Sequence record: PZ386973.1 | DNA from: a phage | Length of the DNA stretch: 64,000 bases | Strand: one strand, 5' to 3' | In this document: positions 2,416-34,517 of the stretch, one piece after another | How positions within the stretch are numbered: position 1 is the first letter of the stretch | Layout of the letters: every line of letters begins with the position of its first letter | Translations under genes and position numbers: made by a program | Notes under the pieces: generated by a model | Database searches by the model: none | Seen by the model: only the letters and a program-made list of their open reading frames with translations | Told to the model about the DNA's origin: nothing

Positions 2416-2844
2416 TTAAGCAGTTAAACCTGGGATCATATACCCGAAACGTCGAAGTTTCTGAATCCCCTCATTTACTTCTTCCGGTGAGTAAGACCAA
2501 CCATAACGTTCATTAACCTGAAAACCAGGGGATTCACTAGTCTTATAGTTAACAACGAGGCGATGCTTAGCAGGCATAAACAGCTTATAGTTTAACGCAA
2601 AAACTAAGCCCATTTCATCTAACTCTTTCCAGCCAACAATTTCTTCAAGACCCTCCTCTACCTGAACAATTAAACCAATACAGAGGGCCTCATCAATATC
2701 ATCTTTAAAAGCAAAGGAGATTTCGTTATTCTCACACCATATTTTCAAGGAATTAATAGCCTCATTATACAGGCTAGCCGGGAGAGTACGCCAAAAGTTA
2801 ACCAAAATTGGGTTAGCTTCTTTAGAGAATACATTATTGAACAT
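2416..2844 (-). CDS. hypothetical protein, paralog of 2017-2406
   Basis: Track ORF; tandem duplicate-like. Confidence 0.45.
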   Translation of the reverse strand: MFNNVFSKEANPILVNFWRTLPASLYNEAINSLKIWCENNEISFAFKDDIDEALCIGLIVQVEEGLEEIVGWKELDEMGLVFALNYKLFMPAKHRLVVNYKTSESPGFQVNERYGWSYSPEEVNEGIQKLRRFGYMIPGLTA

Positions 2845-2846
2845 AC

Positions 2847-3353
2847 TTACACCTTAAATTGTTGTAAGGATTTACACATTTCAAGATCCGGGCTAAATTC
2901 TAGCATATAGCTAACAGCTTTTAAATCTTGAAGATTTATCCCAGTCCTACCGTTGACTATAACTGTTGGATACTGATACATCATAGCACCAGCATCATCA
3001 AGCACACACCAATGTTTGAGCTTATGCTTTTCAACGAAGCGAAGAACAGAATTACCCCTAGATAATCCACCACCAGTAAAATCCGTTGTACCAAGAAAAC
3101 GATCGATAAGACCTAATCCGGTCATAATTCGAACGTTCTCCATTTCATTTTTAACAGAAAACCACGAAGATACCCCAACAATCATTATTGAAGAGGGACG
3201 AATAAAATCCTGAAAAGCCTTGAGAAGTGGCTTAAAAACCCAATCACTTCCGAAGAAGATCTTTTCATCATCCGGCGCATGGTGGTGCGAGATGCTCGAA
3301 TTGAGCACCCCATCAATATCTAGAAAAATAACTGGAGTATTACTTATTTCCAT
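2847..3353 (-). CDS. HAD-superfamily phosphatase-like protein
   Basis: N-terminal FLDIDGVL (DxDG motif I). Confidence 0.55.
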   Translation of the reverse strand: MEISNTPVIFLDIDGVLNSSISHHHAPDDEKIFFGSDWVFKPLLKAFQDFIRPSSIMIVGVSSWFSVKNEMENVRIMTGLGLIDRFLGTTDFTGGGLSRGNSVLRFVEKHKLKHWCVLDDAGAMMYQYPTVIVNGRTGINLQDLKAVSYMLEFSPDLEMCKSLQQFKV

Positions 3354-3522
3354 TTTTGTTCCTTTCTAAGAACGTATCATACTCAACCGTATCAACATAT
3401 ATGACACCATAGTCATCGGATTTATAGTCCATTTCCCACAGCTCACAGCGATAACACCAACTACCATCCGCCCATACAAATATATCATCGGGATGTGTAT
3501 ATACAGATTTAACTATAGACAT
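3340..3522 (-). CDS. hypothetical small protein
   Basis: Track ORF, overlaps its neighbours in operon fashion. Confidence 0.35.
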   Translation of the reverse strand: MSIVKSVYTHPDDIFVWADGSWCYRCELWEMDYKSDDYGVIYVDTVEYDTFLERNKNGNK

Positions 3523-4337
3523 ATTTGTTTCCCTGGCATATAAGGTCTACCCTCTAAATGAGCTTCCACACGAGCAATAAAATCAGGATCACTGAAAGCA
3601 TCTACCGCACCTTTACTCCAGTAAGGGACCCCACGTTCTTCCAGCTGGTACATCTCACTACGAGTCATACCTTGATAGCCGGGCTCCGCTGCTAGAGCAC
3701 TATCATAGTAGTTAACAACCATAAGTTTCGCAGCAGTCAAATTAAGAACAGGAAATAATTCCCAGTAGAAGTTAATTACTTGGTTAGAGCAACCAACTAC
3801 AATAATCATATCTTGACTGGTAATACTGTCAAAAACATTATACATTTCTGCGTATGCAGGAGCATGCTCTCCAAAGAAGATTACATTAGGTTTAGCCCAT
3901 TTATAATCATCCGGATCGATAGAACTGTATCCTACATCAATAATCCGTTTATTGCTACTATTGTATCTATCAGCTACAACAACCTCTTTTAAATATCCGT
4001 GAATGTGCAGAATGTCACTATGTGGAACGCCAGCACGCTCAATAAGGTCATCAACGTTGGTAGTCAAGTTTACTACTTGACCAGGGTATTGTTTATGCCA
4101 TTCACCAATACGCAAATGCGCAAGATTGGGTTCGACAGTTTTTAGCTCTTCACGACGCTTGTTATAAAACATATGGGTTTTATGGTAAAAATTACCACGA
4201 AAGGCATGAATATTACATACTTCTTCTAGATCATAATCATCCCACAATGCTTTACCACTAGCAGTATCAGTACGAAAAGCTCGTACACCACTTTCAACGC
4301 TCAAACCTGCACCGCTAATAATAATTACTCTACGCAT
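3513..4337 (-). CDS. Sir2-like NAD-binding protein
   Basis: GAGLSVESGVRAFR (sirtuin GAGIS..SG motif), TTNVDDL (TQNID-like), HIHG catalytic His; no Zn-ribbon cysteines seen. Confidence 0.6.
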   Translation of the reverse strand: MRRVIIISGAGLSVESGVRAFRTDTASGKALWDDYDLEEVCNIHAFRGNFYHKTHMFYNKRREELKTVEPNLAHLRIGEWHKQYPGQVVNLTTNVDDLIERAGVPHSDILHIHGYLKEVVVADRYNSSNKRIIDVGYSSIDPDDYKWAKPNVIFFGEHAPAYAEMYNVFDSITSQDMIIVVGCSNQVINFYWELFPVLNLTAAKLMVVNYYDSALAAEPGYQGMTRSEMYQLEERGVPYWSKGAVDAFSDPDFIARVEAHLEGRPYMPGKQICL

Positions 4338-5113: not shown

Positions 5114-6991
5114 TTATTTAGCTCGAATATCCTGATGTTTCACTCTGCCCATCACCTCGTGCTGTTTGCCGGGGTTAAATGGACGAGCACCTGGATTTCC
5201 AAGATACCCACAAACTCGACGAGTTACTTCAAGAGTTTCGGGGTCATGATTACCACAGATAGGGCACTTAAATCCATCTTCGGATGCTATTGTTTCACCT
5301 AAGAATCCACATTTACCACAAGAATCCACTGGAGTATTAATACCGAAGTAATGAACCTTACTAGCAGCATAATTAATAACCCATTCCAGTGCATCTGGGA
5401 ATCGTTTCATATCCGGTAGTTCCACATAGGAAATGCATCCACCAGAAGCAATCGGCGTAAAATTAGATTCATAGTCGAACTTCACGTTTGGAGCAACCTT
5501 ACGCTCCACATCTAGGTGGTGCGAGTTAGTGTAGTAACCTTTACTAAGAATATCTTCATGCTCCGGGAAATATTCACGATCTAAACGGCAGAAACGATCA
5601 CATAAGGATTCAGATGGTGTAGCATACAGACTATAGCCTAACTGAGTCTCTTCCTTCTTCTGATCCACTCTATCCCGCATATATTGTAGAACACGTTGTA
5701 CAAACTTAATACAGGTCTCGGACATTGTATCTACATCTTTGCCAAACATAAATTGTAGCATCTCATGGCAACCAATATATCCCAGAGATACAGAAGCACG
5801 GTTATAGAAATGATCAAATACATATTCATCAGGCCCCAAGCGTAGTCCAAAGGCTCCTGACATATAGAGGATGGGTGCGGCTTTAGCTTGAATGTATTTT
5901 AAGCGATCAACTCTCCACTCCAGTGCTTTAAGCGCGGTATCCACACGTAGCTCAAGCAAATCAAAGAATAGATCAATGTTCCCTTCAGCTTCGATAGCAA
6001 TTCTAGGCAAGTTTACAGAAACAACACCTAAGTTATTACGACCGGCAGTTTCTCCATCTTCTGCAGCAGCTAGGAACGAACGGCAGCCCATAGAAACTTT
6101 ATAGTCACCAGTAACTTCCACAACCTTATCATAGCTGATGTAATCAGGATACATACGTTCAGCAGTACATTTCATAGCTAACTTCTTGATGTCATAATTA
6201 ACATCCCCTGGTTTCATATTTACGCCATCACGAAGTACAAATACCAGTTTCGGGAAGATAGCTGTACGTTTATTGATACCTAAACCATCCATGCGTACTT
6301 TCAGTATTGCTTTCTGTACTAGACGTGCTTCCCAAGAAGTTCCTAGACCAAAACCAAAGGTAATAAATGGACTCTGACCATTAGAGTTGAACATGGTATT
6401 GATTTCATATTCTAAACCCTGACAAGCGTCATAGACTTCTTTTTCAGTCATCTCCGTAGCCATTACGGATGCTTTAGCTTCATCCTTAGTCCAACGTTTT
6501 GCAAACGCATGATTTTTGTCATAGGATTTACGAACATAAGGGGCTAATACTTCATCAAGGCGATCTACAGAAGTACCACCATACTGATGGGAGCTAACCT
6601 GAGTAATAATTTGAGCAGTAATAGCCGCCGCAGTAGTGATAGAGTTTGGAGTGCTAATTTCAGCATTACCAACTTTCATACCATTCTTCAACATATCTTC
6701 CAGAGCTACCAGACAACAGTTAGTCATGCCTAATGCAGCATAATCAGCATCATGGAAATGAATATCCCCAATCATATGAGCATTTCGAATCTGAATTGGC
6801 ATTTCTTCTAGAATTAGATACTTACTCAATTCACCTGCAAGCATATCCCTTTGTGTAGGGAAACGTTCTGAGGGTTTATTGGCATTATTAAATAGCAGTT
6901 CTTCATCTGCTGACCCTTCGATAATCTCTTTGCAGTTTCTAATTAACGCCTGCATTTCTTTATATTTTAGTTCTTCATTACGATTCATCAC
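5114..6991 (-). CDS. nrdD: anaerobic ribonucleoside-triphosphate reductase (class III)
   Basis: 625 aa; C-terminal glycyl-radical motif RRVCGYLG preceded by CGKCGF...CPICG zinc ribbon. Confidence 0.88.
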   Translation of the reverse strand: MMNRNEELKYKEMQALIRNCKEIIEGSADEELLFNNANKPSERFPTQRDMLAGELSKYLILEEMPIQIRNAHMIGDIHFHDADYAALGMTNCCLVALEDMLKNGMKVGNAEISTPNSITTAAAITAQIITQVSSHQYGGTSVDRLDEVLAPYVRKSYDKNHAFAKRWTKDEAKASVMATEMTEKEVYDACQGLEYEINTMFNSNGQSPFITFGFGLGTSWEARLVQKAILKVRMDGLGINKRTAIFPKLVFVLRDGVNMKPGDVNYDIKKLAMKCTAERMYPDYISYDKVVEVTGDYKVSMGCRSFLAAAEDGETAGRNNLGVVSVNLPRIAIEAEGNIDLFFDLLELRVDTALKALEWRVDRLKYIQAKAAPILYMSGAFGLRLGPDEYVFDHFYNRASVSLGYIGCHEMLQFMFGKDVDTMSETCIKFVQRVLQYMRDRVDQKKEETQLGYSLYATPSESLCDRFCRLDREYFPEHEDILSKGYYTNSHHLDVERKVAPNVKFDYESNFTPIASGGCISYVELPDMKRFPDALEWVINYAASKVHYFGINTPVDSCGKCGFLGETIASEDGFKCPICGNHDPETLEVTRRVCGYLGNPGARPFNPGKQHEVMGRVKHQDIRAK

Positions 6992-7267: not shown

Positions 7268-7340
7268 ATATTTGTAAGTTGATAAACAAGATCTTTTTGT
7301 TGATCCTCTGTTAGCGAAGTACACTATAGGAGTGTTATTT

Positions 7341-8093
7341 ATGGGAAAAGCACGTCAAAAAAGAGAGAACCGCAATGGTTCAAGAAAGCGTGGCAACAAA
7401 TATGAGAATAACGTAATTCAGGCTGATTTTTCTAATGATTACGCTAACCCAGTTGCTAAATCCCTAGTAGGTAAAAACCGCGAGCAAAAATCATATATCA
7501 ATATGATCAAGAACAACACAGTGACTGTGGGTATCGGTGAGCCAGGTACTGGTAAAACCTTTATTCCGTCTGTTCTTGCAGCTCAGGAACTCGTAGACAT
7601 TCACTCAGATATTGAGCAAGTGATTCTCGTACGTCCTAATGAACCTCTAGGTAAGTCTCTTGGTATGCTTCCTGGTGATCTAGCGGAAAAGCTAGAGCCT
7701 TGGTTGGAGCCAATAGCTGATGGTATGAAATGGGCCATCGGCGACCATGCATATAAAGGATATGTCGAACGTCAGAAAATTAAATTTTTGGCTATCGAAC
7801 ATGCTCGTGGCAGAACTTTCAACAACTCCTATGTAATTGTCGATGAAGCTCAGAATATTTCCGTTGAGGCAATGATTTGTCTCCTAACTCGTGTAGGACA
7901 AGATTGCCGTTTAATTATCTGCGGAGATATAGCTCAGAAAGACATTAAAGGTGACTCAGGTCTAGCACTACTTATGGAAGTCTATGAGAAATACGAAAAT
8001 GCCCCATTCTCAATGATCGAATTGATTGATAACGTTCGTTCTGTTGAGTCTAAAGCATTCTATGATATTTTTAAAGACATGGGGAAGGTGTAA
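7341..8093 (+). CDS. phoH: PhoH-like ATPase
   Basis: Walker A GEPGTGKT and VDEAQN; ATG at 7341 with AGGAG upstream (track start 7332 is a GTG). Confidence 0.8.
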   Translation: MGKARQKRENRNGSRKRGNKYENNVIQADFSNDYANPVAKSLVGKNREQKSYINMIKNNTVTVGIGEPGTGKTFIPSVLAAQELVDIHSDIEQVILVRPNEPLGKSLGMLPGDLAEKLEPWLEPIADGMKWAIGDHAYKGYVERQKIKFLAIEHARGRTFNNSYVIVDEAQNISVEAMICLLTRVGQDCRLIICGDIAQKDIKGDSGLALLMEVYEKYENAPFSMIELIDNVRSVESKAFYDIFKDMGKV

Positions 8094-14578: not shown

Positions 14579-14863
14579 ATGCGGATTTATAACTCAAATT
14601 CATTAGGATTTAAACCATTGAGAAAACGTGCACAATCACCTCGTCAAATAAGAAAGGCTAATATTGGTGAGCCAGAAACACGTCTTCCACCTCCTCCAGA
14701 ACAACGTTTAGTTTATCTGGACGAAGAATTAGCTGAACGCGAAAGAAAAGCTCAAGAAGAGATTGAGCGTAAGAAAATGTGTACTGCTCCAGCCTACTCC
14801 AAGGGGGCTTATCAGTATATCTATACAGCCGAGGAGGCTAAAGATGCGGGGCGTAAAAAATGA
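14579..14863 (+). CDS. hypothetical protein
   Basis: Track ORF downstream of promoter. Confidence 0.45.
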   Translation: MRIYNSNSLGFKPLRKRAQSPRQIRKANIGEPETRLPPPPEQRLVYLDEELAERERKAQEEIERKKMCTAPAYSKGAYQYIYTAEEAKDAGRKK

Positions 14864-15309
14864 AGATTACTGAATTTAAAGGTACTTATAGTTTCTTATC
14901 TAACTTTTATTTATCACCAATTACTTTCGAATATCTAAATGAGATATGGCATGCTGATACTGTAGAACATGCCTTTCAGGCTATGAAATCCGACCAAAAA
15001 GATGATGTAGCTCATGTACTGCGCTCCCTAAGTGCAGGAGTTGCCAAACGTAGGGGACGTAAATTAACTCTGCGCTCTGACTGGGATAAGGTAAAAGATG
15101 ATGTAATGCTAGAGCTTTTACGGTTAAAGTTTGCAATCCCTGATTTGAGAGACAAACTGTTAGCAACAAAAAATGCAACTTTGGTCGAAGGAAATACCTG
15201 GGGAGATACATATTGGGGTGTTTGCCGAGGCATCGGGGATAATACTTTAGGAGTTCTTTTGATGCAGGTAAGGTCTGAAATTAAAAGAAGCTTACAGTTA
15301 ATAAATTAA
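14860..15309 (+). CDS. NADAR-domain (YbiA-like) protein
   Basis: YSFLSNFY...HAEHAFQAMK...GNTWGDTYWG pattern. Confidence 0.6.
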   Translation: MKITEFKGTYSFLSNFYLSPITFEYLNEIWHADTVEHAFQAMKSDQKDDVAHVLRSLSAGVAKRRGRKLTLRSDWDKVKDDVMLELLRLKFAIPDLRDKLLATKNATLVEGNTWGDTYWGVCRGIGDNTLGVLLMQVRSEIKRSLQLIN

Positions 15310-18574: not shown

Positions 18575-19396
18575 ATGGGTAAATTACAAAAACAAATACT
18601 ACCATATATAGATTATATTCGAGAAATTATAGAGTATAATCCTTATACCGGTAAATTATTTTATAAGCCTAATAAATACAAGAATAAAACTTGGCACACC
18701 CTATATGCTGGGAGAGAAATATGTAGTAAGAACTCTGATGGGTACATCAGGGTTAGTTTGCTATTAGATAATAAACCCACAATTATTTATGGACACCGAA
18801 TAGCGTGGTTGCTCCATTATGGTGAAGAGCCGCCTTATATGATCGACCATATAAATACCATACCGTGGGATAACAGAATTATTAATCTAAGAGAGACAAA
18901 TTTTAAGTTAAATAGGATTAATACTAGTAAAACCGTAGGTGTAGAACTCCTCCCCGAGGGTTTTGTGTATAGCATTACATTAGGTGGAAAGTTTTTCGTA
19001 TCTCCTGGCTTCACCACTTTCGAACAAGCTAAAGTAGAAAGAGAAAAACTAGTAAATGGTTTATGTAATGCAGAAATTGGGAAGCAGACCAATATTCTAA
19101 TAGACGATGTTAGAGATTTACCTGAAATGTCCATTATTTGTCGTACAGTTATAGGTGCGCTGGAACTATCAGATGTGTTTAGTTTTACAGGATCCTATTT
19201 ATTTATGGACTCAGATTTAGGAGATCCAGAGGTACAAGGAAAAGATTTATTAGATCATATACTATCATTAGGTCAAAGACCCCTAAAAGTGATTCTAGTA
19301 ACATCTAATCCTGTTGACGCAGAGTACATGAGAGGTACTCTTACGTCTTATGGATACCGAGAAAATCCCAATAGATTAGAATATGATCTATTTTAA
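18575..19396 (+). CDS. HNH homing-endonuclease-like protein with C-terminal extension
   Basis: GHRIAWLLHYG...IDHIN...NLRETN HNH-type motif in the N-terminal half. Confidence 0.65.
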   Translation: MGKLQKQILPYIDYIREIIEYNPYTGKLFYKPNKYKNKTWHTLYAGREICSKNSDGYIRVSLLLDNKPTIIYGHRIAWLLHYGEEPPYMIDHINTIPWDNRIINLRETNFKLNRINTSKTVGVELLPEGFVYSITLGGKFFVSPGFTTFEQAKVEREKLVNGLCNAEIGKQTNILIDDVRDLPEMSIICRTVIGALELSDVFSFTGSYLFMDSDLGDPEVQGKDLLDHILSLGQRPLKVILVTSNPVDAEYMRGTLTSYGYRENPNRLEYDLF

Positions 19397-31847: not shown

Positions 31848-32004
31848 CAACCTAAAAGTAAAGATCGATAAACAAAAGAAACGTGTAGAAGTAGAGATTG
31901 GTGAAGAACGTGTAGCCTTCACCTTTGAATTTCTTCAGCAGTTGGCAATGACAGTTATGACTGATAAGTCTCCTGTTATTGAAAAAGAAATCCCGTTGAA
32001 ATAA
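31840..32004 (+). CDS. hypothetical small protein
   Basis: ATG 31840 overlapping the upstream stop; 54 codons. Confidence 0.4.
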   Translation: MADNLKVKIDKQKKRVEVEIGEERVAFTFEFLQQLAMTVMTDKSPVIEKEIPLK

Positions 32005-32012
32005 CGGGTTTT

Positions 32013-32084
32013 GCTCCTAAAGCATTGCTGGCGATGCAGTTGCCTTGTAAGCATCTGAACCGGGTTCGATTCCTGGTGGGAGCA
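32013..32084 (+). tRNA. tRNA-Thr (anticodon TGT)
   Basis: Acceptor GCTCCTA/TGGGAGC, D-stem GCAT/ATGC, loop CTTGTAA. Confidence 0.65.
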
Positions 32085-32102
32085 CCAAATTTAAAAATTC
32101 AT

Positions 32103-32131
32103 TTGCCTTCTCTCTTATTTATTGTTATAAT
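32103..32131 (+). promoter_or_regulatory. early promoter module
   Basis: TTGCCT-N17-TATAAT. Confidence 0.55.
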
Positions 32132-32161
32132 ATTTATATAAATTAATGAGAGGGAAACCAA

Positions 32162-32455
32162 ATGAAACGTTATCTTTCTGTATTATTCCAAGCTGGTGGT
32201 CAACGCTATACTTACGAATTTCCTAGCTCTTGGAAAATAAAAGAAGGTGATCAAGTAGTAGTGTTAACACCACGTGAAGGGTATAAAGTAGTAACGGTTA
32301 AACAAGTATTTCCAAAAGATCATGAACCGGCTAAAGGCATTCGCTATAAGATGATTCATGGTGTGGTTCGTCAAGTACCACGAGCGGAAGTAGAAATCAG
32401 AGTAGATAAAGATGGTAAACTTAAGTATACTTCTTGCTTAGATGAGTTACTATAA
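32162..32455 (+). CDS. hypothetical protein
   Basis: Track ORF. Confidence 0.45.
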   Translation: MKRYLSVLFQAGGQRYTYEFPSSWKIKEGDQVVVLTPREGYKVVTVKQVFPKDHEPAKGIRYKMIHGVVRQVPRAEVEIRVDKDGKLKYTSCLDELL

Positions 32456-32661
32456 TGAGGATTACTTTCACAGAAAAGATCATGAGTAATGGTGTTATGA
32501 TCATTACCGCATGGGATGGTAATCAGTGGTGTAGTGTTTCAGGTATTAAGCCCGAAGAACAAACACTAGAAAATATCTCAAAGATTAAGCGAAGAATGGC
32601 AGAACGTGCACGACTTCCAGGTGCGCCTAGAAATGGTAAACGTTCTGCAATTAAATGTTAA
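32455..32661 (+). CDS. hypothetical protein
   Basis: Track ORF, ATGA overlap. Confidence 0.4.
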   Translation: MRITFTEKIMSNGVMIITAWDGNQWCSVSGIKPEEQTLENISKIKRRMAERARLPGAPRNGKRSAIKC

Positions 32662-32662
32662 T

Positions 32663-32736
32663 GCTTCGGTAGCTTAGCGATCTAAAGCACTCGGCTGATA
32701 ACCGAGAGATCGGGGGTTTAAATCCCTCCCGGAGTA
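32663..32736 (+). tRNA. tRNA-Ile (anticodon GAT)
   Basis: Acceptor GCTTCGG/CCGGAGT, anticodon stem CTCGG/CCGAG, loop CTGATAA; unusual T-loop TTTAAAT. Confidence 0.6.
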
Positions 32737-32835
32737 CCAAATTTAGGAATTAAGACTATGCGTCCAGGAAAGTTTAAAAAAGCTAATTGGTCTAAAGAGT
32801 ATAAAGAATACTTACTTAGTCTAATAAAACATAAT

Positions 32836-32908
32836 AGTTAGTTGGCAGAGTGGTTATGCACCTCCTTCATACGGAGCGACTACAGTGGTTCAAATCCACT
32901 ACTAACTA
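32836..32908 (+). tRNA. tRNA with CAT anticodon (Met or Ile2)
   Basis: Acceptor AGTTAGT/ACTAACT, loop TTCATAC. Confidence 0.6.
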
Positions 32909-32934
32909 CCAAATTCTAACATCGGGGAGATCTA

Positions 32935-33303
32935 ATGAAAGCATATCAAAATCTTAAATCTGGCGTAATTAACCTTGTTCATGAAAATCAGATTATTCAG
33001 CTATACTCCGACAACGGTGAACTTAAACAGAAAGTTCTAGTTGAAGATCTAGAAGGTATCACCCCACAATTCGATCCTGAAGCCTTCCGTGAAGTCAAAG
33101 TGGAAGTCGCCCCTCAAATCGAAGGTGGTCAGCACCTAAATGTCAATGTGTTAAGCCGTGATCAGCTTTTGGATGCGCAGAAACATCCTGAAAAATATCC
33201 TCAGTTGACCATCCGTGTCTCTGGCTACGCTGTTCGATTTAACGCACTGACTCGTGAACAACAGAACGACGTTATTAGTCGTACATTTACTCAGGCGATG
33301 TAA
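32935..33303 (+). CDS. grcA: autonomous glycyl-radical cofactor (GrcA/YfiD-like)
   Basis: C-terminal [27 protein letters not shown] matches the glycyl-radical signature RVSGYAV. Confidence 0.7.
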
Positions 33304-33384
33304 TGGGGTTTGGATACGATTTCTCCGAGCTACATGAGGTAGTCGAGCAAACTCCATTTATCTCCCAAGTTTTAGGAGAAATGT

Positions 33385-33690
33385 GTGGATCGAGCATTAA
33401 GACGCCATCACCGGCAACGTGTGAAGAACAACCGTAAGAAGTATTGGACAGTCTTTCCACATGAAGAAAGCCCTAAGCGGTTAGGTATTATCACTACTAC
33501 TCCTTGCATCTGTTCTTGTTGGATGTGTGGGAACCCTCGCAAATATTATAAGAATAGTAAAGCAGGTATGAAAACCTCGGAGATCAGGAAAATGGAAGCG
33601 ATGATTGCGGACATCACCTATACTGGTGGTATTTCAAATGATGAATTTGATGGCTTCGTAGCGTTCGAAGATGAACGCCCCGATCTGTAA
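33385..33690 (+). CDS. hypothetical basic, Cys-containing protein
   Basis: Track ORF. Confidence 0.45.
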   Translation: MDRALRRHHRQRVKNNRKKYWTVFPHEESPKRLGIITTTPCICSCWMCGNPRKYYKNSKAGMKTSEIRKMEAMIADITYTGGISNDEFDGFVAFEDERPDL

Positions 33691-33699
33691 TTAATAACA

Positions 33700-33736
33700 A
33701 ACCCCAGCTATTGAATAAGTAGTCTGGGGTTTTTCT
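33700..33736 (+). terminator. rho-independent terminator
   Basis: CCCCAG...CTGGGG stem followed by TTTTT. Confidence 0.6.
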
Positions 33737-33811
33737 GTATAAAGGTACATAATATATGTATAATAAAATTCATCCACATTAGGTTAATTTAAAAGACTTA
33801 ATGGAGGTAAT

Positions 33812-34159
33812 ATGAGCCGTACTTATCGTAAACAATCTGGTGATCAGTGGTGGAAGTCTAAAGAACAATTCTCTCAAGAATATTCTTTCCTCAAAGAAAA
33901 TGGCTACTGGATTCGTGTTATTTATGCCAAATCCTGGGACGACATCAAAAAAGAAATGAAGGAAGCAACCATTCGTAATGAGAAAAAGGATGGTTATAAC
34001 TGGAATTCTATTAGTAAGAATGTTAAGTGGCATTCTAATAAAATGGTTCGTCAAGGGAATCGTCAAGAACTCCACCGCGTGATGAAAGATCCAGAAAATT
34101 ATGATTATAATCGCGATCATGACATGCGTAAACGTGGGTTATGGTGGTGCTATGACTAA
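33812..34159 (+). CDS. hypothetical protein
   Basis: Track ORF after GGAGG. Confidence 0.45.
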   Translation: MSRTYRKQSGDQWWKSKEQFSQEYSFLKENGYWIRVIYAKSWDDIKKEMKEATIRNEKKDGYNWNSISKNVKWHSNKMVRQGNRQELHRVMKDPENYDYNRDHDMRKRGLWWCYD

Positions 34160-34176
34160 ATTCTGAAATAATTCAT

Positions 34177-34205
34177 TTGCTAAACCTCTCTTTTCTTGTT
34201 ATAAT
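34177..34205 (+). promoter_or_regulatory. early promoter module
   Basis: TTGCTA-N17-TATAAT. Confidence 0.55.
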
Positions 34206-34235
34206 ATGTTTATAAATTGATGAGAGAGGTTTGAA

Positions 34236-34517
34236 ATGAAAACTCGTCTAGACTGTGCTGTTCATGTTCTTGAACATGATGTTGCGGGAACCTGTATGTC
34301 TTACCACGAAGCAGGTCGTTTAATTAAAGAACGTGTGGCAGATGTGTGCGGATTGAAGATTACTGCTGAGGAAGCTGATGATCTTTTAGGTCAAGCACTG
34401 GAGAAAACCGAAATGTTTCTCTGTGATTCTTGTTCTTGGTGGTGTGAAGCCCACGAACGTTCTTTCAACGATTATGATGTATGTCGTGATTGTAGTGGGG
34501 AGGATGAAGATGAATAA
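34236..34517 (+). CDS. Cys-rich hypothetical protein
   Basis: Track ORF; CDSCSWWC...CRDC. Confidence 0.45.
   Translation: MKTRLDCAVHVLEHDVAGTCMSYHEAGRLIKERVADVCGLKITAEEADDLLGQALEKTEMFLCDSCSWWCEAHERSFNDYDVCRDCSGEDEDE

What the first reader, a model, noticed from the sequence alone, without database searches (positions are those of the whole stretch)
32935..33303. GrcA/YfiD-like glycyl-radical spare part in a phage that also encodes NrdD
The C-terminus carries the RVSGYAV glycyl-radical signature. Host GrcA rescues oxygen-damaged pyruvate formate-lyase. A phage homolog could serve the same role, or hypothetically support the phage NrdD.
Basis: partly seen in the sequence, partly recalled or inferred. 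Interest (0 to 1): 0.6.

Follow-up and report, generated by a model that had tools for sequence, protein, structure and literature searches.

The report
Phage copy of GrcA spare part
This T5-like phage carries a small gene for a GrcA/YfiD-type "spare part" that most likely repairs the host's oxygen-damaged pyruvate formate-lyase; the gene is real and under selection, but it is ordinary, because the T4 counterpart was shown to do this in 2001 and the T5 gene has been annotated since 2004-5.

Summary
Window 32935-33303 (+) is a 122-aa ORF with a good ribosome-binding site. Its C-terminal 62 residues form a PFL-type glycyl-radical domain with an intact RVSGYAV motif (Gly97).

The window is a T5-like phage (Demerecviridae). 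The gene is the orthologue of T5.056 / T5p055. It occurs in hundreds of T5-like genomes, and GenBank labels it "pyruvate formate-lyase" or "autonomous glycyl radical cofactor". Relatives occur in 1586 phage records, including T4-type vs.6 (= Y06I), which was shown biochemically in 2001 to restore oxygen-cleaved PFL.

The gene is under strong purifying selection (dN/dS 0.07). This holds for its divergent N-terminal half too.

Neither the window nor the whole T5 genome encodes a PflA/NrdG-type activase, so the host's PflA must install the radical.

A direct role as a spare part for the phage NrdD is not supported. The two proteins show no sequence similarity, the GrcA-like protein has no cysteine and so no zinc-ribbon, and every fold match is to a PFL-type enzyme. 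An indirect link is plausible but inferred: PFL makes formate, which is the reductant of this type of NrdD.

Verdict: already known kind, already annotated, low interest.

The parts
32935..33303 (+). grcA-like gene (orthologue of T5.056 / T5p055), 122 aa plus stop codon
   Evidence: ORF list and sequence; Pfam, NCBIfam and PHROG hits; 100% protein identity to Salmonella phages Th1, HMD-7 and STP-SP2; dN/dS 0.068 over 29 alleles.
32924..32929 (+). Shine-Dalgarno-like GGGGAG, 5 nt upstream of the ATG
   Evidence: Read directly from the sequence.
32935..33114 (+). N-terminal half (residues 1-60). It is lineage-specific in the middle and shares the M-K-A-x-Q start and the R-E-V-x-V-E-x-x-P end with other GrcAs. 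By analogy with YfiD it would serve binding of cleaved PFL and activation.
   Evidence: Alignment A2. hhalign gives prob 88%, E 3e-6, with signal only from residues 1-9 and 49-61. dN/dS is 0.11. The role of the YfiD N-half is taken from PMC8683613.
33115..33300 (+). C-terminal glycyl-radical domain (residues 61-122), equivalent to PflB residues 698-759 and GrcA residues 66-127
   Evidence: Of the 61 residues from I62, 48 are identical to E. coli GrcA, 49 to PflB and 51 to TdcE. dN/dS is 0.017. The AF2 model matches 6owr and 2pfl.
33214..33234 (+). RVSGYAV glycyl-radical motif; the Gly97 codon is 33223-33225
   Evidence: Sequence; invariant in all 61 aligned homologues.
32103..32131 (+). Promoter-like site (TTGCCT-17-TATAAT with a TG extension). 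By synteny it is probably the counterpart of T5 early promoter P11, which would drive ORF - ORF - tRNA-Ile - tRNA-Met - grcA-like gene - next ORF.
   Evidence: Consensus scan. The T5 annotation shows P11, T5.058, tRNA-Ile, tRNA-Met, T5.056, T5.055 and a terminator in that order. Function is inferred, not shown.
32663..32911 (+). tRNA-Ile(GAU) and tRNA-Met(CAU) immediately upstream; the gene starts 23 nt after tRNA-Met and is probably co-transcribed with them
   Evidence: ARAGORN; no terminator-like site lies between them.
5114..6991 (-). Phage NrdD (class III ribonucleotide reductase). It is context only: a formate-type enzyme that could benefit indirectly from PFL activity.
   Evidence: Pfam NRDD E 4e-172. 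It is 53% identical to E. coli NrdD and keeps the equivalents of C175, M382, C384 and G681. No NrdG lies beside it.

Best explanation
[quoted passage not shown] It is expressed early in infection from the tRNA region. Because T5-type phages encode no activase of their own, the host's pyruvate formate-lyase activating enzyme PflA installs a radical on Gly97 within the RVSGYAV loop. The C-terminal domain copies the last ~62 residues of PflB. [quoted passage not shown] The phage shuts off and degrades the host genome, so the host cannot induce its own grcA. The phage copy would therefore keep fermentative energy and formate supply running in gut-like, fluctuating low-oxygen conditions. What is shown here: the gene's identity, the domain, the conserved glycine, purifying selection, the absence of a phage activase, and the wide distribution among phages. 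What is inferred from homologues (E. coli YfiD, T4 Y06I): activation by PflA, binding to cleaved PFL, and the benefit to the phage.
For: Domain and family hits. Alignment with GrcA, PflB, TdcE and T4-type vs.6 shows RVSGYAV and 44 invariant columns, and 37 invariant columns across 61 homologues. The AF2 model's C-half matches the YfiD NMR structure and the PFL crystal structures. Purifying selection: dN/dS 0.068 overall, 0.11 in the N-half and 0.017 in the C-half, from 29 alleles. The gene is conserved in T5, T5st0 and hundreds of T5-like phages, and in T4-like, jumbo, Vibrio and Aeromonas phages, 1586 records in all. No PflA/NrdG homologue is found in the window or in the whole T5 genome. Published biochemistry shows that YfiD and T4 Y06I are activated by PFL-AE and restore O2-cleaved PFL, and that the N-half is needed for binding and activation (PMC8683613). 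GrcA restores a PflB G734A strain in vivo (PMC12338860). The T5 A1 protein is annotated as degrading host DNA and shutting off host genes.
Against: No experiment exists on the T5-type protein itself, and no paper on it was found. It scores 121 bits, below the NCBIfam GrcA cut-off of 170. However, the T4-type protein (155.7 bits) and jumbo-phage versions (135-137 bits) also fall below it. Residues ~10-47 have no detectable similarity to any other GrcA, so binding to cleaved PFL through the N-half is not guaranteed. The benefit to the phage is untested.
Confidence: 0.8

Rival explanations
1. Direct spare part for the phage's own NrdD: after oxygen cleaves NrdD at its glycine, the small protein would replace NrdD's radical domain.
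For: Both genes are in the same genome. Both proteins carry a glycyl-radical loop of the R-V-x-G-Y type. The Drennan-lab paper speculates that spare parts may exist for other glycyl radical enzymes (PMC8683613).
Against: BLASTP of the two proteins gives E 5.8, and the alignment does not pair the glycine loops. NrdD's radical domain carries a Cys4 zinc site (CGKCGF...CPICG) and the loop RRVCGYLGNPG, whereas the small protein has no cysteine. Over its last 61 residues it is 79-84% identical to PflB, TdcE and GrcA. Every significant sequence or fold match in the PDB is a PFL-class enzyme, and none is an NrdD. NrdD occurs in 2924 phage records against 1586 for GrcA-like genes, so most NrdD phages manage without one. 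From my own knowledge, activases are specific for their partner, and RVSGYAV is the PflA substrate peptide.
Confidence: 0.03
2. The molecular mechanism is the same (rescue of host PFL), but the main selective benefit is formate rather than energy. PFL is the main source of formate, and formate is the reductant of formate-type class III reductases such as the phage NrdD. On this reading the spare part supports NrdD indirectly.
For: The phage NrdD is 53% identical to E. coli NrdD and keeps the Cys175, Met382, Cys384 and Gly681 equivalents. Formate is the reductant of the E. coli and T4 enzymes (PMC4493059, citing Mulliez 1995). The T4-like and T5-like phage lineages examined here carry both genes.
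Against: This is purely inferential. Co-occurrence may only reflect a shared low-oxygen lifestyle and was not measured genome by genome. The phage also has an aerobic NrdAB. Acetyl-CoA and ATP gain is an equally good benefit.
Confidence: 0.3
3. It has a broader or different target: it serves TdcE (2-ketobutyrate formate-lyase), or intact but radical-less PflB, rather than specifically the oxygen-cleaved PflB.
For: Of the three E. coli paralogues compared over the 61 C-terminal residues, TdcE is the closest: 51/61 against 49 for PflB and 48 for GrcA. The positions that differ are listed. GrcA restores activity to full-length PflB G734A in vivo (PMC12338860).
Against: The identity differences are small (48, 49 and 51 of 61), and synonymous sites are saturated against all three paralogues (pS 0.56-0.73). 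The residues that look TdcE- or PflB-like ([11 protein letters not shown]) are shared by a wide clade of phage GrcAs. Gene conversion between spare parts and PFL genes seems common.
Confidence: 0.15
4. It is a decoy or inhibitor: the phage protein soaks up PflA or blocks PFL in order to redirect pyruvate.
For: There is no direct evidence. It is conceivable because the protein has a perfect PflA substrate loop and a divergent N-half.
Against: The whole PFL-contacting domain is conserved far beyond the PflA recognition loop, with dN/dS 0.017. The T4 homologue restores activity rather than inhibiting it.
Confidence: 0.04
5. It is a non-functional remnant of captured host DNA.
For: The gene lies in the tRNA region of T5, part of which is lost in the viable st0 deletion mutant. 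GenBank labels for it are inconsistent.
Against: The ORF is intact in 29 of 29 alleles, with dN/dS 0.068 at dS 0.37. It is retained in T5st0. Synonymous divergence from the host genes is saturated, so it is old. It has a good ribosome-binding site.
Confidence: 0.02

Closest known systems
Bacteriophage T4 Y06I (gene vs.6), an autonomous glycyl radical cofactor
   Same: Both are small stand-alone phage proteins (120 vs 122 aa) with the same architecture. Both start with M-K-A-Y-Q, carry an R-E-x-x-x-E-x-x-P linker and have the same RVSGYAV radical domain. The T5-type protein is 52-57% identical overall to T4-type vs.6. Both phages encode NrdD. Y06I is biochemically validated as rescuing O2-cleaved PFL.
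   Different: The T4-type C-half is essentially E. coli grcA: 60 of 61 residues and 97% of the DNA are identical. The T5-type C-half is equally distant from GrcA, PflB and TdcE and is old. The middles of the N-halves show no detectable similarity. T4-likes carry their own NrdG and T5-likes carry no activase. The genomic context also differs: vs region in T4-likes, tRNA cluster in T5-likes.
E. coli GrcA / YfiD (TIGR04365, IPR011140; NMR structure 6owr)
   Same: Similar size, same two-part layout, 48/61 identical C-terminal residues, and the glycine is conserved (Gly97 = Gly102). It is the best PDB sequence hit and the best fold hit.
   Different: The T5-type protein scores 121 bits against a 170-bit family cut-off, and only residues 50-122 align to the model. 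Its N-half is strongly diverged. It is encoded by a virulent phage and expressed from phage promoters, not from the host's own grcA regulation.
C-terminal glycyl-radical domain of PflB and TdcE (formate C-acetyltransferases)
   Same: 49/61 and 51/61 identical residues over PflB 699-759. The best E. coli DNA match is the 3' end of pflB, 78.5% over 186 nt.
   Different: The protein is 122 aa, not ~760. It has no barrel and no catalytic Cys418/Cys419. The GenBank labels "pyruvate formate-lyase" and "2-ketobutyrate formate-lyase" are therefore misnomers.
GrcA-like proteins of jumbo phages (Klebsiella phage K64-1, Salmonella phage SE_PL) and of Vibrio, Aeromonas and Providencia phages
   Same: They belong to the same family and share phage-clade residues ([15 protein letters not shown]). 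They are 56-70% identical to the T5-type protein.
   Different: Their N-halves resemble the T4 type (GTI..D..A+I+VSKTF.ED) rather than the T5 type.

Membership tests
GrcA/YfiD autonomous glycyl radical cofactor | Stand-alone protein of about 120-130 residues, not a fragment of a longer glycyl radical enzyme gene | tested here: met
   The ORF is 122 aa with its own ribosome-binding site and stop codon, and is flanked by a tRNA and an unrelated ORF. The length is the same in all T5-like alleles.
GrcA/YfiD autonomous glycyl radical cofactor | C-terminal ~60 residues homologous to the PFL radical domain (PflB 698-759), with RVSGYAV and the radical glycine | tested here: met
   Pfam PF01228 E 3.7e-18. 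PDB hits to PFL and YfiD. Gly97 aligns with Gly102 of GrcA and Gly734 of PflB. Fold match to 6owr and 2pfl.
GrcA/YfiD autonomous glycyl radical cofactor | Score above the curated NCBIfam equivalog cut-off (TIGR04365, 170 bits) | tested here: inconclusive
   The score is 121 bits, below the cut-off. The controls show the cut-off is tuned to bacterial proteins: E. coli GrcA scores 234, but T4-type vs.6 (the validated kind) scores 155.7 and jumbo or Vibrio phage versions score 135-137, all below 170. GrcA remains the best-scoring family.
GrcA/YfiD autonomous glycyl radical cofactor | N-terminal ~60-residue region homologous to that of GrcA (needed in YfiD for binding cleaved PFL and for activation) | tested here: inconclusive
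   Profile-profile comparison of N-halves gives prob 88%, E 3e-6 over residues 1-61. After removing the last 13 residues only positions 1-9 still align, and pairwise BLASTP finds only the REV.VE..P stretch. Gln5 is nearly invariant family-wide. AF2 predicts a similar beta-rich N-half for this protein and for enterobacterial GrcA.
GrcA/YfiD autonomous glycyl radical cofactor | Radical installed by PflA; restores activity of O2-cleaved PFL | not testable with these tools
   This needs biochemistry. Precedent exists for YfiD and T4 Y06I only (PMC8683613).
Formate C-acetyltransferase (PflB/TdcE), as many GenBank records label it | Protein of ~760 aa with a ten-stranded barrel and the catalytic Cys418/Cys419 pair | tested here: not met
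   The protein is 122 aa with no cysteine. It aligns only to positions 683-744 of the 744-position model TIGR01255, scoring 86 bits against a cut-off of 994.
Class III ribonucleotide reductase (NrdD) radical domain | Cys4 zinc site followed by an RVCGYLG-type loop; sequence similarity to NrdD | tested here: not met
   BLASTP against the phage's own NrdD gives E 5.8. The protein has no cysteine. No NrdD appears among the PDB sequence or fold matches.

The most novel reading that the evidence does not exclude
The T5-type protein has a lineage-specific N-terminal middle (residues ~10-47). This stretch shows no detectable similarity to any other GrcA, yet it is under purifying selection (dN/dS 0.11). 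It might retarget or re-time the spare part. For example, it might bind intact PflB or TdcE, or act without prior oxygen cleavage. The phage could then take control of the host's pyruvate-to-formate flux to feed its formate-dependent NrdD, rather than merely repairing damage.
Probability: 0.08. Interest if true: 0.45.

Novelty: already known. Interest (0 to 1): 0.15.

Why it matters
It matters little beyond tidy annotation. Virulent enterobacterial phages (T5-like, T4-like, jumbo) carry a repair part for a host fermentation enzyme. This fits the view that they are adapted to replicate in the gut, where oxygen fluctuates, alongside their anaerobic ribonucleotide reductase. The practical points are these. 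Many GenBank records mislabel the 122-aa protein as "pyruvate formate-lyase", "ribonucleotide reductase subunit" or "acetyltransferase-related". The T5-type version has never been tested, so a simple PflA / cleaved-PFL assay would extend the two validated spare parts (YfiD, Y06I) to a third, more divergent one.

Tried and rejected
1. Chimera idea: a GrcA-like N-half fused to a pflB/tdcE-derived C-half. The best E. coli DNA hit was pflB and the tail looks TdcE-like. I rejected the idea as unsupported. Identities are 48, 49 and 51 of 61. Synonymous sites are saturated against all three genes. The "PflB-like" residues are shared by a broad phage clade.

2. A phage-encoded activase. tblastn with E. 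coli PflA and NrdG against the window and the whole T5 genome found nothing. Pfam scans of the ORFs next to NrdD found Sir2, HAD and others, but no radical-SAM protein.

3. The downstream 101-aa ORF (33385-33690), whose motif PCICSCWMCGNPRK fits CX3CX2C, as a mini-activase. I rejected this. It is too small, has no Pfam hit, and is absent beside T4-type vs.6.

4. A uniquely folded N-terminal domain. AF2 gives a beta-rich N-half with pLDDT about 80. The control on enterobacterial GrcA, whose N-half is disordered by NMR, gives the same picture at pLDDT 82-87. This is therefore no evidence of novelty. Foldseek found no match for the N-half.

5. Literature on the T5-type gene. Four searches found nothing specific, and PMC9112899 is not held.

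6. Genome-by-genome co-occurrence of GrcA and NrdD was not done, because the tools list at most 60 records per search. Only totals were compared: 1586 against 2924.

Full report
**Observation.** Window 32935-33303 (+) is an intact ORF of 122 codons plus a TAA stop. GGGGAG lies at 32924-32929, 5 nt before the ATG. The gene begins 23 nt after a tRNA-Met (32836-32911). RVSGYAV occupies residues 94-100 (33214-33234), and the glycine is Gly97 (33223-33225). Statistical support is overwhelming:
- Pfam Gly_radical: E 3.7e-18.
- NCBIfam: GrcA is the best family, E 3.5e-35.
- PHROG 1209: matched over the full length, E 8e-48.
- PDB sequence search: YfiD 6owr at E 1.4e-30, and E. coli PFL at E 5e-27 over PFL residues 698-759.

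The antisense ORFs that overlap the gene are most likely spurious, because the sense frame shows strong codon-level constraint.

**What the window is.** The surrounding 2.5 kb is 94-97% identical to more than 200 T5-like phages of Salmonella and Escherichia (Demerecviridae, Tequintavirus). The window holds:
- a cluster of 22 tRNA genes;
- NrdA, NrdB and thymidylate synthase, plus NrdD at 5114-6991 on the - strand.

The gene is the orthologue of T5.056, "putative acetyltransferase-related protein, IPR001150". In the T5st0 record it is T5p055, "pyruvate formate-lyase related protein ... COG3445". It has therefore been recognised since the T5 genome annotations. The protein is 100% identical to that of Salmonella phages Th1, HMD-7 and STP-SP2. 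Other records call it "autonomous glycyl radical cofactor GrcA", "pyruvate formate-lyase", "2-ketobutyrate formate-lyase" or "ribonucleotide reductase subunit".

**Anatomy.** Alignment with E. coli GrcA, the PflB and TdcE C-termini and T4-type vs.6 gives 44 invariant columns, all in the C-terminal 60 residues, with the glycine conserved. Across 61 phage and bacterial homologues 37 columns are invariant.

The C-terminal 61 residues are identical to GrcA at 48 positions, to PflB at 49 and to TdcE at 51. At the DNA level the same stretch is 72-78% identical to the three E. coli genes, with synonymous differences of 0.56-0.73. That is saturated, so this is an old phage gene and not a recent capture.

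The N-terminal half is much more diverged:
- Pairwise BLASTP finds only the REV.VE..P stretch in common with GrcA, and nothing in common with vs.6.
- A profile-profile comparison of N-halves gives prob 88%, E 3e-6.
- The signal comes from residues 1-9 (M-K-A-x-Q, with Gln5 nearly invariant family-wide) and residues 49-61.
- Residues ~10-47 are lineage-specific.

Even so, 29 distinct T5-like alleles give dN/dS 0.11 for the N-half, 0.017 for the C-half and 0.068 overall at dS 0.37. Both halves are therefore functional.

**Structure.** The AlphaFold2 model has mean pLDDT 73. Its C-half matches the YfiD NMR structure and PFL crystal structures (Foldseek E 3e-5 to 8e-4). Every further match is a PFL-class glycyl radical enzyme, and none is a class III reductase.

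The model also shows a beta-rich N-half. A control prediction for enterobacterial GrcA gives the same picture at even higher confidence, although NMR shows that N-half to be disordered (PMC8683613). The N-half prediction therefore says nothing special about the T5 type.

**Mechanism.** According to the literature read here, E. coli YfiD and T4 Y06I are radicalised by the PFL activating enzyme. They bind PFL that oxygen has cleaved at Gly734, restoring activity. The YfiD N-half is needed for binding and efficient activation but not for catalysis (PMC8683613). GrcA Gly102 passes the radical to PflB Cys419, and GrcA restores a PflB G734A strain in vivo (PMC12338860).

The T5-type protein conserves the whole radical domain, so the same mechanism is the best-supported reading. 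No PflA- or NrdG-like protein is encoded in the window or anywhere in the T5 genome (annotation). The host PflA must therefore act on it.

In T5 the gene sits in an early transcription unit: promoter P11, T5.058, tRNA-Ile, tRNA-Met, T5.056, T5.055, terminator. The window has a matching promoter-like site at 32103-32131.

T5 degrades host DNA and shuts off host genes (A1 annotation). A phage-borne copy would therefore replace the host's own grcA, which can no longer be expressed. This last step is inference.

**The NrdD idea.** A direct spare-part role for the phage NrdD is not supported:
- The two proteins share no detectable similarity (E 5.8).
- NrdD's radical domain has a Cys4 zinc site and an RRVCGYLGNPG loop, while the small protein has no cysteine.
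- NrdD is found in 2924 phage records and GrcA-like genes in 1586.

An indirect link is reasonable. The phage NrdD is 53% identical to E. coli NrdD and keeps the Cys175, Met382, Cys384 and Gly681 equivalents. Formate is the reductant of the E. coli and T4 enzymes (PMC4493059), and PFL is the cell's main source of formate. Keeping PFL alive would therefore also feed NrdD. This is inference only.

**Comparison and novelty.** The closest known relatives are T4 Y06I/vs.6, bacterial GrcA, and the PflB and TdcE C-termini.

On membership:
- Size, domain and glycine criteria are met.
- The curated NCBIfam cut-off is not reached (121 against 170 bits). The T4-type protein (155.7) and other phage versions (135-137) do not reach it either, while E. 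coli GrcA scores 234. The cut-off is therefore a bacterial-equivalog threshold and not a test of the fold or the role.
- The protein is not a formate acetyltransferase and not an NrdD domain.

Because a phage GrcA was biochemically characterised in 2001, and this very gene is annotated in T5 and in hundreds of relatives, the finding is already known. No paper on the T5-type protein itself was found, so its activity remains formally untested.

**Verdict.** It is ordinary. Interest 0.15.

Noticed in passing
L005 (Escherichia phage RB14) 3001-3363, compared with L003 (E. coli grcA): The T4-type vs.6 gene is a sharp mosaic. From the EGGQHL codons to the stop its DNA is 97% identical to E. coli grcA (pS 0.09), while the 5' half is essentially unrelated at the DNA level. 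This points to recent gene conversion of the phage spare part by the host gene. Some enterobacterial GrcA clusters (P0098, P0100, P0107) likewise carry a PflB-type C-terminus, which suggests recurrent conversion among grcA, pflB and phage copies.
   Followed up: partly
window 33385-33690 (+): The gene immediately downstream (the T5.055 orthologue, 101 aa) has a basic N-terminus and an invariant motif TTTPCICSCWMCGNPRK. It belongs to PHROG 4499 and has no Pfam hit. It is conserved in nearly all the T5-like loci fetched, and absent next to T4-type vs.6. It is probably a small zinc-binding protein, and it is too small to be a radical-SAM activase.
   Followed up: partly
window 5114-6991 (-) and the whole T5 genome (L041, L043, L044): T5-type phages encode NrdD but no NrdG-like activase anywhere, unlike T4-likes, where nrdG lies close to nrdD. 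The phage reductase must depend on the host NrdG. The phage NrdD is 87 residues shorter than E. coli NrdD and has no ATP-cone Pfam hit.
   Followed up: partly
window 2416-4337 (-), 7332-8093 (+), 14860-15309 (+), 18575-19396 (+): Other accessory genes in the window are a Sir2-family protein, a HAD_SAK_2 domain protein, a DUF7415 protein, PhoH, a NADAR-domain protein, and an HNH endonuclease fused to a cREC_REC domain.
   Followed up: no
window 32661-32935 compared with L001 (Salmonella phage PH204) 3663-4188: About half of the closest relatives carry roughly 250 bp more than the window somewhere within window 32000-34500 (two-piece matches). In PH204 an extra 65-aa ORF is annotated between the ORF that precedes tRNA-Ile in the window and the grcA-like gene. 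The tRNA region is a patchwork of small insertions and deletions.
   Followed up: no
GenBank records of T5-like phages: The same 122-aa protein is variously annotated as pyruvate formate-lyase, 2-ketobutyrate formate-lyase, formate acetyltransferase, ribonucleotide reductase subunit, acetyltransferase-related protein, hypothetical protein or GrcA. Only the last label fits.
   Followed up: yes
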